A stretch of 64,000 bases of DNA from Malacoraja senta (Eukaryota), in contig CM075988.1 of assembly GCA_038087875.1 (NCBI GenBank), positions 20,338,001 to 20,402,000 on the forward strand, in the 5' to 3' direction. The position numbers were made by a program, and so were the translations under genes. The notes beneath the pieces were generated by a model. That model was not told the origin of the DNA, ran no database searches, and saw only the letters and a list, made by a program, of their open reading frames with translations. This document shows, one piece after another, positions 591-7,012 of this stretch (its first letter is position 1; every line of letters begins with the position of its first letter).

Positions 591-1257
591 AATATCAGGT
601 TCGTAAACCAACCACACATCCCTAATCCTAACACTACGGCCCACCTCTTGAACAGCTATGAACCTTTTTTTCTATTTACATTTTTATACTAATTTCTTAT
701 TTTTGGACCGACTTTCTTTTAGACGTTCATGTGTAACGTGTGTATCATTTGTTTTTTGTGTTTGTCTGTGTGCCTGTGATGCTGCTGAAAGCAAGAATTT
801 CATTGTACCTGTCCCTCTGCACTTGTGCACATGGCCATGAACTTGAGGTGGACCTTTGGGACCCAGTCCTGACAGTAATGGATAGCCAGCAGGTCCTTAG
901 AGGCCTACTGTCCACCTGCAGTGTGCTCTAGACTTCACCTGTGGAACATGATGGAGATCACATCTGACCTCTGAGTTGGGGTTGAGCTCAGAGTTGGAAC
1001 AATCAGCAAGGCTCCAATCAACCGCGCCGACAGATCACATTGTTGCTATCGTACTGCCTCTGGCAGCTTGCAACAGAACCAGCCCATCTCACAGATCAGA
1101 CTCTCATCACTGACTACTCTGGGAAAGCAGCCAACCTAATCAAGGACCTTTTCCACCATGGCCTCATCTCCTTGCTGACCTTGGGCAGAAGATACAAAAG
1201 CTGGTAAACGCACACCAGCTGACTTTTGGCACTTTGGCCTTCATCAAGGCTTTTGGC

Positions 1258-1460
1258 AGGAGGATGAGGGGAGATCTTATAGAGGTGTACAAAATCATGA
1301 GAGGAATAGATCGGGTAGATGCATAGTCTTTTGTCCAAAGTAGGGGAATTGAGGACCAGAGGACATAGGTTCAAGGTGAGGGGGAAATAATTTAATAAGA
1401 ATGTGAGGGGTAACTTTTTCACACAAAGGGTGGTAGGTGTATAAAACATGCTGCCAGTTT
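1258..1460 (+). mobile_element. CR1 LINE fragment
   Basis: aggaggatgaggggagatcttatagaggtgtacaaaatcatgagagg encodes RRMRGDLIEVYKIMRG. Confidence 0.85.
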
Positions 1461-1521
1461 CCACACTATCACTCTGACTCTATGACTCTGGAACAGCTTC
1501 TTTCCCTCTTATCAGACTACA

Positions 1522-2700: not shown

Positions 2701-4801
2701 ATTAAACTGGAAACTACTGTTTGTGCTAGTTTAAGAACTGAAGTTTTGTGACAGTAGATAGTTTGTACACAATGCCAGGATTTCTTGTCTCCCTAAGTGA
2801 GTGACTTGCATAGAGTTTGTTTTTTGCCGAATCAGATGTCTGCAATGACTTGGCTTAACCTGTGAATAACCCATTTGGGATTAGAGGGGCCAAAGTGCCT
2901 ATGATTAGCAGACTGTCTGAGTTGAATTTTGCTCTCAGTAAGAACCAGAGGACACAGTGGGAGAATGTTATTAAGCTTAAGAAGTCTGAGGACAACCACA
3001 AGTTGTCTGAAAGAATTGGTTTCATGGATATAGCAACCATCGATCCAAGGTTGTGATTACTGAACTCCCAGGCAACCATCCCGCTTCCACCTCAATGCAT
3101 TTTGAAGTTGACAATATAATTGGAGTTTTAAAAAGTCACCAAGGCTAGGCTCTGGTTTGTCAGTCCTGGACCCAACCCACAGAGAACATGCATATCCAGC
3201 ATGAATGTTGCGGTTGCTGGGAAGAAAATGCCCCTTCATCTCCACAGGGGATGGTAGACCAGCGAGAGACAGCAGGGCCGAGAAAGGGAATTTGCTTTCA
3301 GACTGAAAGATTCTGTATTTTGCTACTTAAAAGCTAAAATACCAAGAAGCAATAATACGGAAAATGTTCTGGCTCTTGGAGAGCAAAGGACCCCAGCAAC
3401 CGATGTGTGAAAGAAAGCAAATAGATTTCTGTGAGATGCCTGCTATTTGTGGCTTCCGGTCGTCATATAAGCCCTAACGCTAAACCTTTCCTGTTATCAG
3501 GGTAGACATTTGGTTCTGCAGAAAGTAATAAGTACACGAATTTTGAGGAATTAAATTGAAAAGGGAAATGTGCCTTTTTGATGCAATTTTGCAATCATCT
3601 TTGCAAATGCAACACTAAATTTCACTTTAATCATTCTGTTGTGAATTTATGGAAGATTCGGAGGAAATAAATATTCAGGGTTTGTTGTGATAAAATTATA
3701 ATAACACGAAAGCTGAAGATAACTTGATTTATTAAAGGAAGCCGTGGCCAGAAAATAACTTGGTTAGTAAGGTGCCAGGGTGGAAAATTTCCAGAGACAA
3801 ATATTGCAGAGACAGTAGTCATAAACAGAACAAAATACAGAGGTTCAATAAAACTCCATCCATAAATCATGTTAAGTATGGTTGAAGGTATCTGACCAGC
3901 AATAGATTACACAAAGGATTGCATCTGCAGGTGCTGTTTGTGAGATTAGTGGGAGGAAAAGGATAAAATCCATACGTTTAACCTATAGTAGCCATGAGGA
4001 TTTTGCAAGTCGGAGAGTTTGGAGAAAGAGTCAATAACTAAAAGGAGAAGGAAAACATCACTGCTTCAGGAATGTGTGGGAACGTTTGGCAGAATTGGTG
4101 TCTATCTGACATGCTAAGGAAGGATTCCGTTCTGCTAACTTTGAGGAGGGAAGGAACGTTGGAAGAGAAACTGTTTTGCATTTTGAGGCCTTGAATCTGT
4201 CAACGCGGCACTATTGCTTGTTGAAGTTAACAGAAGCAGATACTGGATTGTGCTTGTTAATGGGGTGGAATTCAGTGAGTTTCAGGTGCGCTGGCAATGG
4301 TCAATAAAGGATGAACGCTGCGTGGCTGTTTAATGGCGCACAAATGCACCCAGCACTTGTTGACAGCACAGCTAACAGTACGAATGTTGTGCACTGCCAG
4401 CTTTCCAATGGAAGGCATGCTCATGTGTTGATGATTAATGTCTCCTGCCTGTAAGTTGCATGTTGATGTGGTGTCATCTATGAACATCTATTCCCAAATG
4501 GTTGCAGATACAGTCTGTGCTCGGTATAGACAGCTTTGTGGTTCATCAATCATTGAACATATTCAAGGCTGAATAGAGAAGTTAGTCAACCGGACAGCTG
4601 ATGGTTAGATGGATCTGGTGGGCAAGAGGAGTTGATTGCAAGATACGATAAGACATAATCCATTCGACGTGATGCTATTAGACATGGGGTGGCACATTTA
4701 CTGAGCTGCAATGAAAAATTTTGTTTGCATGATATCCAGTCAAGAAAAGGCCGTACATGATTACAATCAAGCTGTCCATAGTGTATAGATAAAGGTACAT
4801 C

Positions 4802-5128
4802 ATTTGCCCTTCGAGGTTGGCTGCAGAGGTTTTGCATGGTAATCGCTCTACAAAGCCTTGAGTGCACTGGGCATCAACGGAATGGAGAGGAGAAGAGCCA
4901 TCAAGAAGACCACAGAGGCAGCGGAGAAAGCCTTGAGATGGCTCTGGATCAGGAGAGAAGGTCCATGGGAAGGAGTGAATGCCACCTGAACACAAGTCAT
5001 GGTCTGATTAACCACTGCTGGGTCGCCTGGGAGAGGGTGTCTGATGTTGAAAGACCCGAAACGCCCAATGACCCCCAGGTTACATCACTGATGTGTTCAG
5101 GAGAATCAAGAGATGTATTTTATCAATC
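4802..5128 (+). mobile_element. HERO-like (restriction-like endonuclease) non-LTR retrotransposon 3' fragment
   Basis: Frame starting at 4804 reads LPFEVGCRGFAW*SLYKALSALGINGMERRRAIKKTTEAAEKALRWLWIRREGPWEGVNAT* (stop 4987-4989, premature TAA 4840-4842). EVGCRGF and AEKA.RWLW resemble the HERO-clade C-terminus. It is inserted into an older minus-strand Rex1-type tail (about 4690-4800 and 5129-5295). Confidence 0.75.
5020..5098 (+). ncRNA. Candidate non-circularly permuted hammerhead ribozyme in the HERO-like 3' UTR (degenerate copy)
   Basis: Stem III GGGTGT 5035-5040 / ACGCCC 5061-5066, with GUC at 5039-5041 and GAAA at 5058-5061. Stem I TGATGT 5042-5047 / ACATCA 5082-5087, directly followed by CTGATG 5088-5093. 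Additional stems GGGTC 5020-5024 / GACCC 5053-5057 and CCTGGG 5026-5031 / CCCAGG 5074-5079. Confidence 0.6.
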
Positions 5129-5566
5129 AGTCCACGATAAAGTCTGATTAAAGATAGTTCAAGGACTCCAAAAAAAATCGATGGGAGATCAGGATCACTC
5201 TCTAGCTAATGAGGACTTCCCAGTTGCCTGATAACAGCTGGGAAGAAATTGTCCCTGAATCTGGAGGTATGCATTTTTCAACTTCTGTATCTCCTTGCTT
5301 AATCAATAATGTCACAGCCTATCTTAGAGTAACCCTTCAGATTCCCCCTGATGCAATGAACTGCTGACTAATTCTAGTTAAGTGACAGGTACAGGCAGCT
5401 CTGTGATAACACCGTTTTCCACAGCACTAATTAGATACAACACGAGTGATGAATTAGGAAACACCTTTGTAATCGAGTGATAGCGCAACGGGAGGATCTC
5501 ACATGAAGCACTCTGTTTGCACAGCACTCAATGTAAAGATGCAGCAAGTAAAAATTTAATGTCTTC

Positions 5567-6025: not shown

Positions 6026-6714
6026 TGAGGTTCCGGTCTTCTTGTATCTGCAGATGTTTGCTTGTGCTTTTATTTTGTGATGGTATAGTGTACCGACATC
6101 TCTAAAATATTAAAAGCTAAATTGATGTACAGCAGCCAATAAACTCTAGTGTGAGTACTGCTCCTTTTTGTTGACCAAAACAGCACTGGAATTTGTCCAT
6201 CACCCAATAACATGTGGCACATATAAGAATTGGATCTAATGATTGATCAGCCTTCGGGGTTTTATGGGGCAGGAATTTTGAGCGTTTTTTAGTTGCTCCT
6301 TGCCCAATGAGGTCAACTGCAGACTTGATCCCATTTTGACCAACCAAGTGGTTCCTGTTTTATTTCGAACTCAATAAATCATTCTTGTTTGGCCGACACA
6401 TTATGCTGATTACAGACAAGGTTAAATTGGGCATAGAAGAGTTGATCGAAAGCAACAGGTGACCCTGCGCTGAAGTGTGACTCTTCAACACATAAACACC
6501 CTTTAATCTGCTCAACAGCTCTCAGTCTAAAGTTAAGTCATCGTTGGTTTTGTCATTGAGATGTTTGGAGATTCTTCACCATCTGTACGTGACATTAATC
6601 TCATTGTTTCTCTGTCTTTTGTTCCTCAACTCCCCAGTTCCCAATAAAGACATGGGCATGTACATGAACAGGAAAGATTTAGATGGATATAGTCAAATGT
6701 GGGCAGATGGGGCT

Positions 6715-7012
6715 AGCAGGTGGCACAGTGGTAGAGTTGCTGCCTTAAACCCCAGAGATCACGGTGGTGTGGGGGGGGGGGGGGGGGGGGGGGTTGCTGT
6801 CTGAAATGAGTTTTCATGTTTTCTCTGTGACCATGTAGGTTTTCTCCGGGTATTCCGGTTTCCTCCCACATTCCATGGACGTGCAGGCTTGGAGGTTAAT
6901 TGGCTTCTGCAAATTGCCCCTGGTGTGTAGGACAGAACTAGTGTACGGTTGATCGCTGGTCCGTGTGGACTCGGTGAACCGAAGGGCCTATTTCCACAAT
7001 GTACCTCTAAAA
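6715..7012 (+). mobile_element. HE1-type V-SINE with a poly-G run in place of the B-box region
   Basis: ggtggcacagtggtagagttgctgcctt head, G run at about 6770-6793, then V-domain and CR1-like tail. Confidence 0.8.

What the first reader, a model, noticed from the sequence alone, without database searches (positions are those of the whole stretch)
5020..5098. Non-circularly permuted (knotted) hammerhead-like RNA in the 3' UTR of a HERO-like retrotransposon
Seen: about 30 nt after the ORF stop, all three hammerhead core strands are present with correct adjacent pairings. Strand S1 is GGGUG-UC^UGAUGU (5035-5047). Strand S3 is GACCC-GAAA-CGCCC (5053-5066), whose ACGCCC pairs with GGGUGU as stem III. 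Strand S2 is ACAUCA-CUGAUG (5082-5093), whose ACAUCA pairs with UGAUGU as stem I. GACCC can pair with upstream GGGUC (5020-5024), and CCUGGG/CCCAGG forms a fourth stem. The order is S1-S3-S2, whereas types I-III are circular permutations of S1-S2-S3. This copy reads CUGAUGU rather than CUGAUGA, so it is probably inactive; it also has a premature stop in the ORF. Established: hammerhead core consensus; natural non-circular permutations have been reported, but I cannot confirm whether this family is among them. Inference: a conserved ribozyme or RT-binding structure that processes or marks the 3' end of the element RNA.
Basis: partly seen in the sequence, partly recalled or inferred. Interest (0 to 1): 0.85.

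Follow-up and report, generated by a model that had tools for sequence, protein, structure and literature searches.

The report
Split hammerhead ribozyme in rolling retrotransposons
Animal HERO retrotransposons carry, after their gene, a conserved rearranged hammerhead-type RNA fold, and their long copies run head-to-tail with no fixed start, so the fold likely cuts and rejoins the RNA into a circle that is then likely copied round more than once; the copy in this window is a broken relic.

Summary
Window 4805-5129 is a 5'-truncated HERO retrotransposon copy. It lost three core bases by deletion; 72 of 83 family copies keep CUGANGA. The same RNA lies behind 66 of 68 related metagenome loci.

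Stems I, II and III covary: 11 pairs are significant in a tree-aware test, all in the model. The core follows hammerhead rules: the cleavage base is never G, position 7 is free, and C3-G8 swaps to U3-A8. The order is S-G-C, like the known type SGC. Unlike SGC, CUGANGA is separated from stem II by a perfect four-way junction, and a k-turn folds stem III back.

Long copies of three families run upstream through their own 3' end; none of 90 starts at the unit junction except one. Units within an array share private variants. This points to rolling reverse transcription of a circular monomer, probably made by the ribozyme.

Cleavage is not shown, and RNA-seq from a related species gave no cut signal. 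No paper found describes this RNA or circular HERO RNA.

The parts
4805..5129 (+). 5'-truncated copy of a HERO-clade non-LTR retrotransposon (family A)
   Evidence: 1199 candidates, 40 scored at 92-94% identity; shared sequence starts at 4805 and ends at the ATCAAT tail.
4804..4989 (+). C-terminal remnant of the RT/restriction-like endonuclease ORF, premature stop at 4840-4842
4985..4994 (+). P0 5' strand (10-bp closing helix with 5092-5101); one arm of the four-way junction
   Evidence: 82% of cells paired, 8 of 8 pairs with double changes; 2 significant pairs.
4995..5019 (+). Hairpin that abuts P0 and stem II with no linker. Loop 5004-5010 reads CUGAUUA here and CUGAUCA (palindromic core) in the family.
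   Evidence: closing pair standard in 50 of 55..
5020..5024 (+). Stem II 5' strand (G10.1 at 5020), upstream instead of after CUGANGA
   Evidence: 94% paired; 3 significant pairs
5026..5031 (+). P4 5' strand (pairs 5074-5079); joins the far ends of stems I and II
   Evidence: 84% paired; no pair significant
5032..5034 (+). k-turn, non-bulged strand (N-G-A)
   Evidence: 42 of 55 have GA opposite a 3-nt bulge plus GA
5035..5047 (+). Block S: stem III 3' strand 5035-40, predicted cut after C5041, stem I 3' strand 5042-47
5053..5066 (+). Block G: stem II 3' strand 5053-57, GAAA 5058-61, stem III 5' strand 5061-66
5067..5072 (+). k-turn bulged strand (3-nt bulge, then GA)
5074..5079 (+). P4 3' strand
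5082..5091 (+). Stem I 5' strand 5082-87 and the remnant CUGA of block C; positions 7-9 are deleted in this copy
5092..5101 (+). P0 3' strand, which follows A9 directly in intact copies
5102..5129 (+). Short tail hairpin (decayed here) and the usual 3' terminus of family A copies

Best explanation
The 3' UTR of HERO retrotransposons holds a conserved hammerhead-type fold in S-G-C order with its core strand split by a four-way junction; it likely cuts a transcript of a longer-than-unit copy at two successive units and likely rejoins the monomer into a circle, which the element's reverse transcriptase would prime internally and copy round more than once. Shown: the structure, hammerhead-like conservation, head-to-tail arrays without a fixed 5' end, variants shared inside arrays, and 3' ends downstream of the cut site. 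Inferred: cleavage after the NUH triplet; ligation by the ribozyme itself (the two products stay joined by stems II, III, P4 and P0, about 27 bp) or by host RtcB; a covalent circle; strand-displacing rolling target-primed reverse transcription. The window copy is an early-terminated product that later lost core bases 7-9 and is predicted inactive.
For: Structure. On a sequence-only alignment of 55 non-redundant RNAs (mean identity about 50%), 87.6% of cells pair and the covariation score is 0.67, against 0.10-0.16 for slid controls. A tree-aware null gives 11 pairs at E<=0.05 of 8778 tested, all in the model. Catalytic signature. In 66 of 68 loci parsed without letter demands: H17 C26/U27/A13/G0; N7 free; G8 63; G12 60; G10.1 62; 3:8 is CG 59, UA 2, UG 2. 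U3-A8 is a known active covariation (PMC3088659, passage). Rolling template. 30 of 30 family E, 25 of 30 family A and 29 of 30 family C copies found by their 5' UTR run upstream into their own 3' end, with scattered starts; the other five A copies start inside the query. Units in one array share 1.22 non-majority variants per kb against 0.17 between arrays, many private to the array, with only 3 discordant common sites. 20 of 23 E loci end at 3944-3950 of the 3950-nt unit, mostly 3-5 nt short of the junction. No indel at the cut site in 67 parsed A copies. Precedent: the retrozyme and Penelope circle models (PMC7229834, PMC6765202; passages).
Against: No cleavage, ligation or circle was observed. 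Reads laid on a family A copy show no dip and no pile of starts or ends at the predicted cut: depth 66/71 before and 69/74 across in X23. The test is weak: related species, mixed old copies on both strands, 1-5% of each run read, 106 loose-end rows not shown. Only 1 of 90 long copies starts at the cut, and short copies starting near it are rare (3, against 0 and 2 in control windows). No hammerhead with a break between A9 and G10.1 turned up in the papers read, and Eckert et al. assume that block cannot be interrupted. 27 of 66 have GUU, a weaker triplet (recalled). In family C, 14 of 28 distinct starts lie within 22 nt of the junction, which could be a loose 5' end. U3-A8 comes from one sub-clade.
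Confidence: 0.58

Rival explanations
1. The ribozyme is active, but no covalent circle forms. Cleavage frees a 5' end for cap-independent translation of the next unit, as the R2 HDV-like ribozyme does. Uncleaved multimers, or a nicked monomer held shut by base pairs, serve as the template.
For: In arrays the RNA sits 89-213 nt upstream of the next unit's 5' UTR. Ribozyme-aided translation is published (PMC13725137, passages). Copies stop more often inside the 3' half of the RNA in families E and A, as expected just before a nick or a tight fold.
Against: A linear multimer should pass on differences between its units, yet only 3 discordant common sites were seen against many shared private variants. 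Crossing a nick should leave indels, and none was seen in 67 parsed copies.
Confidence: 0.2
2. The RNA is a non-catalytic protein-binding scaffold or a hammerhead relic. The arrays arise another way, such as end-to-end template jumps or a protein-made circle.
For: No cut signal in RNA-seq. The core strand is interrupted. All genomic copies keep the site uncut. R2 uses a pseudoknotted 3' UTR to bind its RT (PMC12222951, search listing only).
Against: Conservation follows catalytic rules rather than just shape: G never at H17 in 66 loci, position 7 free, G8 and G12 kept, C3-G8 swapped to U3-A8. The tandem junction is identical across E arrays, with no added bases.
Confidence: 0.15
3. One reading: cleavage makes or marks the 3' end of a linear element RNA.
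For: The RNA lies in the 3' UTR, 30 nt after the stop codon.
Against: Copies end about 85-205 nt downstream of the cut and keep the whole RNA.
Confidence: 0.04

Closest known systems
Type-SGC hammerhead ribozymes (HRIMA-1; Eckert et al. 2023, PMC10085705; parts 1-6 of 8 read, supplements not read)
   Same: S-G-C order, two pseudoknots, a short linker from stem I to stem II, and an extra helix joining the far ends of stems I and II.
   Different: Block C is split. The stem II 5' strand lies at the front, and A9 runs into a closing helix that forms a perfect four-way junction with a hairpin. A k-turn links stem III to the extra helix. It lies in chromosomal retrotransposons, whereas the paper found SGC RNAs only in metatranscriptomes and none in genomes of known organisms. 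Cleavage is untested here.
Metazoan non-LTR retrozymes (Cervera and de la Pena 2020, PMC7229834, passages)
   Same: Head-to-tail genomic units with one hammerhead each; proposed circular RNA template giving tandem cDNA.
   Different: Retrozymes are 170-400 nt, non-coding, non-autonomous and use type I hammerheads. These units are 3.6-3.95 kb and encode their own 1181-aa RT/endonuclease ORF.
Penelope-like elements with hammerheads in pseudo-LTRs (review PMC6765202, passages)
   Same: Autonomous elements, partial tandem copies, hammerhead in the repeated end, circle proposed.
   Different: Different RT lineage and endonuclease: here a restriction-like endonuclease with a CCHC knuckle; GIY-YIG in PLEs (PMC8557442, search listing). 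PLE hammerheads are minimal type I.
R2, RTE and L1Tc 5' HDV-like ribozymes (review PMC6765202, passages)
   Same: A ribozyme inside a non-LTR retrotransposon that frees the element from a longer transcript.
   Different: Those are HDV-type, sit at a fixed 5' end and give linear templates. No Rfam family, HDV included, matched six loci holding whole or partial elements.
HERO clade (HEROTn, HERO-1_BF, HERO-2_DR)
   Same: The RT of family A closely matches HEROTn and family E resembles HERO-1_BF, by eye.
   Different: No ribozyme, circle or obligate tandem structure was found described for HERO.

Membership tests
Hammerhead ribozyme | Conserved core CUGANGA, GAAA, NUH | tested here: met
   66 of 68 loci parsed: C3 60, G8 63, A9 64, G12 60, U16.1 63, H17 never G, N7 free. 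U4-G5-A6 and A13-A14-A15.1 were the anchors. Met for the family, not for the window copy.
Hammerhead ribozyme | Stems I, II and III next to the core, with covariation | tested here: met
   significant pairs I 3, II 3, III 2
Hammerhead ribozyme | C3-G8 tertiary pair and G10.1-C11.1 pair | tested here: met
   3:8 is CG 59, UA 2, UG 2; G10.1 62 of 66. The 3:8 pair is not significant in the tree-aware test; U3-A8 comes from one sub-clade.
Hammerhead ribozyme | CUGANGA continuous with the 5' strand of stem II | tested here: not met
   The base after A9 pairs with 11.1 in 3 of 55; the upstream strand does so in 49 of 55.
Hammerhead ribozyme | Self-cleavage after H17 | not testable with these tools
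   No assay possible; RNA-seq showed no cut signal and is inconclusive.
Type-SGC hammerhead | 5'-to-3' order S, G, C with a short S-to-G linker | tested here: met
   linker 2-6 nt in 38 of 55, range 0-10
Type-SGC hammerhead | Helix joining the far ends of stems I and II | tested here: met
   P4: 84% paired, 5 of 6 pairs with double changes; no pair significant
Type-SGC hammerhead | Uninterrupted block C | tested here: not met
   Split by the four-way junction
k-turn | 3-nt bulge followed by tandem G-A and A-G pairs between two helices | tested here: met
   42 of 55 with a bulge of 3; bulges of 0, 1, 2, 4, 5, 6 gave 13, 1, 1, 0, 7, 1
k-turn | Kinked geometry or L7Ae binding | not testable with these tools
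   Needs FRET, binding or a structure
HERO clade | RT similar to named HERO elements | tested here: met
   By-eye match of the and translations to HEROTn, HERO-1_BF and HERO-2_DR in supplements; no tree with references was built
HERO clade | Single ORF with RT, CCHC knuckle and restriction-like endonuclease | tested here: met
   1181-aa open frame in L093, RVT_1 at 434-689; knuckle and endonuclease motifs read by eye and named from recall
Retrozyme | Tandem units with one hammerhead each | tested here: met
Retrozyme | Small, non-coding, non-autonomous | tested here: not met
   3950-nt unit with an RT ORF
Retrozyme | Circular RNA detected | not testable with these tools
   A circle closed at the cut site leaves no joint in reads

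The most novel reading that the evidence does not exclude
HERO elements are autonomous, protein-coding retrotransposons that replicate as ~4-kb circular RNAs. The circles are made by a new hammerhead architecture whose core is built across a four-way junction and braced by a k-turn. A palindromic kissing loop brings two successive ribozyme copies together to swap strands and ligate, and the RT primes inside the circle and rolls.
Probability: 0.3. Interest if true: 0.95.

Novelty: new variant of a known kind. Interest (0 to 1): 0.87.

Why it matters
For ribozyme biology: a natural hammerhead core with a break between A9 and G10.1, the position that permutation searches assumed unbreakable. Covariance and descriptor searches therefore miss a family with over a thousand candidate copies in this genome and protein relatives across fish, lancelets and molluscs. 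It would be the first SGC-like hammerhead in chromosomes of known organisms, as far as the papers searched show.

For retrotransposon biology: non-LTR elements are assumed to copy a linear RNA from its 3' end. A clade that primes inside a circular template would be a new route. It offers a testable autonomous partner for the rolling model proposed for retrozymes and Penelope. A young family with an intact ORF (family E, copies about 99% alike) is available for assays, and an RT that integrates from circular RNA would interest RNA-only gene insertion work.

Tried and rejected
Rfam: only two chance hits at the window (E 4.9 and 6.6) and none at E<=1 in six loci.

Pseudoknot-free folding: the 101-nt stretch is unremarkable (z -0.35). 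With P0 included, intact copies fold well (z -3.67 and -2.60) and give P0, the hairpin, P4 and stem III, but not stems I and II, as expected for pseudoknots.

Canonical stem II after A9, with 0-2 inserted bases: rejected; the first pair is standard in 3, 36 and 10 of 55 and the later pairs are inconsistent.

Self-targeted insertion or jumps between random RNAs as the source of arrays: disfavoured by shared private variants.

Viral contigs: no relative. Four prokaryote-genome hits are likely animal contamination.

Short copies starting at the cut: too few to judge.

RNA runs: no RNA holder listed on record. The lay of four raw runs is reported under evidence against.

A polymerase-stop excess in the RNA's 3' half holds for E (p 0.004) and A (p 0.009) but not C (p 0.9); the zone was chosen after seeing the data.

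Central loop covariation is not significant (E 0.76). The protein tree is only a quick tree on 115 columns. Earlier findings of this scan: none. DNA around the named fish and mollusc proteins could not be fetched, so host names for the RNA alignment are missing. One review on hammerhead variants (PMC3334697) was not held.

Full report
Observation. Window 4805-5129 is a 5'-truncated copy of a repeat with 1199 candidate copies in this 1.94-Gb genome; 40 were scored and 30 fetched. Its ORF remnant is the C-terminus of an RT/restriction-like endonuclease protein with a premature stop. The family RT matches HEROTn by eye, and a second family resembles HERO-1_BF (supplement passages of PMC7650587 and PMC5678591). 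No tree with references was built. The odd CUGAUGU is a 3-nt deletion: 27 of 30 loci read CUGAUGA; among 83 distinct family A 3' UTRs, 72 keep CUGANGA, 57 keep the whole core, and only this copy has the deletion. The window copy is therefore predicted dead; the family is the object of interest.

Relatives. Searching the genome with a distant relative showed other families (C, D, E; 47-59% identical at the C-terminus), including a young family E with a 1181-aa open frame. A metagenome scan returned the best 79 loci of 358 confirmed stretches, and prokaryote assemblies gave 4 more. Of these 83 loci, 68 have at least 260 nt after the match. A strict descriptor hits 52 of 68 and 0 of 6800 shuffles; the 16 misses show the same RNA decayed, by eye. 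Hosts of these contigs are unknown; named protein relatives come from teleosts, a ray, a lamprey, lancelets and bivalves.

Structure. From 77 parsed RNAs I dropped 20 near-duplicates (at least 88% alike) and two (L144 truncated, L194 then unverified), leaving 55, aligned by sequence only. Six helices pair in 87.6% of cells with a covariation score of 0.67, against 0.21 for shuffles and 0.10-0.16 for slid partners. My own R-scape-like test (G-test with APC, 200 tree-based nulls) gave 11 of 8778 column pairs at E<=0.05, all in the model: stem I 3, stem II 3, stem III 2, P0 2, hairpin 1. The order is: P0 5' strand, hairpin, stem II 5' strand, P4, block S, linker, block G, P4', stem I 5' strand, CUGANGA, P0 3' strand. 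Stem II is made with the upstream strand (first pair standard in 49 of 55), not with the bases after A9 (3 of 55). A9 runs directly into P0, P0 into the hairpin and the hairpin into G10.1; the hairpin's closing pair is standard in 50 of 55. This is a perfect four-way junction in place of the A9-G10.1 bond. Between stem III and P4, 42 of 55 have a 3-nt bulge with tandem GA pairs, a k-turn by sequence. It would fold P4 back toward the tips of stems I and II (inference); Eckert et al. flagged that very connection as hard to fit.

Catalytic signature. The first regular expression demanded core letters, so I repeated the parse anchored only on AAA, UGA and pairing. 66 of 68 loci scored at least 19 of 23 pairs. 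In these, H17 is C 26, U 27, A 13, G 0; position 7 takes all four bases; G8 63, G12 60, G10.1 62; positions 3:8 read CG 59, UA 2, UG 2, other 3 (near-duplicates included). C3-G8 to U3-A8 is a known active covariation (PMC3088659, passage), though here it comes from one sub-clade and is not significant by itself. I put catalytic competence at about 0.8 (inference).

No fixed 5' end. Where the conserved 5' UTR start was found, it was preceded by the element's own 3' end, with one possible exception in L158. Searching with the 5' UTR (30 loci of 40 listed from 215, 285 and 248 candidates), 30 of 30 E, 25 of 30 A and 29 of 30 C copies run upstream through the junction. The five other A copies start inside the query and one C copy starts at the junction. 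Starts are scattered to beyond 1.5 kb; 23 of 30 E copies carry a whole upstream ribozyme; 1 of 90 starts at the predicted cut. In 23 family E loci the unit is 3950 nt with an identical junction. Twenty end at 3944-3950, mostly 3-5 nt short of it; one ends at 3935 and two are interrupted. Units of one locus share 1.22 non-majority variants per kb (25 pairs) against 0.17 between loci (1051 pairs). Many are private to one array (L291, L292, L304, L305, L094), and only 3 common sites are discordant. One monomer was therefore likely read more than once. Metagenome contigs show the same wrap-around (L118, L161, L163, L165, L185). Against this, family C starts cluster within 22 nt of the junction (14 of 28); this fits falling off at the first displaced cDNA, but also a loose 5' end. 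Gene conversion between neighbouring units is not excluded.

Mechanism. A copy longer than one unit has two ribozymes. Cutting at both frees a monomer with 5'-OH and cyclic-phosphate ends (established hammerhead chemistry); ligation closes it (inferred). The RT then primes at a target nick about 85-205 nt past the ribozyme, just before a conserved 5' UTR motif, and rolls with strand displacement until it falls off (inferred; R2 RT strand displacement is recalled and seen only as a reference title). This explains intact ribozymes in all copies, 3' ends downstream of the cut, and arrays that renew themselves. Stops are enriched in the RNA's 3' half in E and A but not in C (post hoc). The hairpin loop holds a 6-nt palindrome in 37 of 55 (UGAUCA 30, UGGCCA 6, UCAUGA 1); about 12 have a tetraloop instead. 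UGGCCA falls in about four places on a quick tree. A kissing dimer is a lead only.

Evidence against. Four raw RNA runs of a related species (317-605 reads each laid on L002:1230-1850) show flat depth across the predicted cut at 1737 and no pile of ends there. Template-switch adapters were listed at 1660 and 1769; 106 loose-end rows were not shown. The reads are mixed old copies on both strands, so this argues only against efficient irreversible cleavage of bulk transcripts. It fits a ligation-favoured ribozyme and an inactive one equally.

Prior work. Eckert et al. (PMC10085705; parts 1-6 of 8 read, covering the main text; supplements not read) define type SGC, assume uninterrupted blocks and report no SGC RNA in genomes of known organisms. 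Searches: HERO + retrotransposon + hammerhead, 0 papers; HERO + retrotransposon + ribozyme, 5 (two read as passages, three as listings). The listings showed nothing on this RNA or on circular HERO RNA; three of those lists were cut at 20. Passages of PMC13580325 and PMC4640811 mention HERO without a ribozyme. Passages of PMC13725137 and PMC10162972 showed no such variant. Subscription papers and Repbase Reports were not searchable, so HERO tandems may be noted there. Rfam has no match.

Verdict. A real, strongly covarying new hammerhead architecture marks the HERO elements sampled, with genomic evidence for a rolling, likely circular, template. Structure about 0.97, catalysis about 0.8, whole mechanism 0.58. 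New variant of a known kind; interest 0.87.

Noticed in passing
L112 (minus strand, about 4650-4735), L093, L101, L118-L185: A conserved 5' UTR motif starts a few bases after the priming site: a CUGG/CCAG hairpin, then repeated GUGAC, purine-rich hairpin, UGRCAAC units. It is conserved across distant families, has no Rfam match, and may be the RT-binding site or an internal promoter.
   Followed up: partly
L107, L170, L175, L168, L174: A sub-clade with U3-A8 or U3-G8 cores and a GACG tetraloop instead of the palindromic loop; good contrast constructs for assays.
   Followed up: partly
G000:C2:130460200-130467200 (L093) and L231-L260, L291-L310: Family E is young: at least 40 copies identical over 174 nt, a 1181-aa open frame without an obvious early ATG context check, a poly-C tract in the 3' UTR, and arrays of up to three units.
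   Followed up: yes
L194 and L192: HERO fragments with the RNA in assemblies labelled as bacteria. L194 is AT-rich and has a LINE-type RT fragment nearby, so both are likely animal contamination.
   Followed up: partly
L160, L172, L183, L184, L190: Variants in which the k-turn region is shortened or altered while the core stems remain.
   Followed up: no
L098 and L302 flanks: Long target-site duplications of roughly 30 bp appear at some family E insertions; most show none by eye.
   Followed up: no
window 1114-1479 (minus) and several stretches near 1480-1850, 2400-2730, 6700-7000: Other repeats: a fragment that looks like the end of a CR1/L2-type LINE ORF and recurring SINE-like sequence (labels recalled, not tested).
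   Followed up: no
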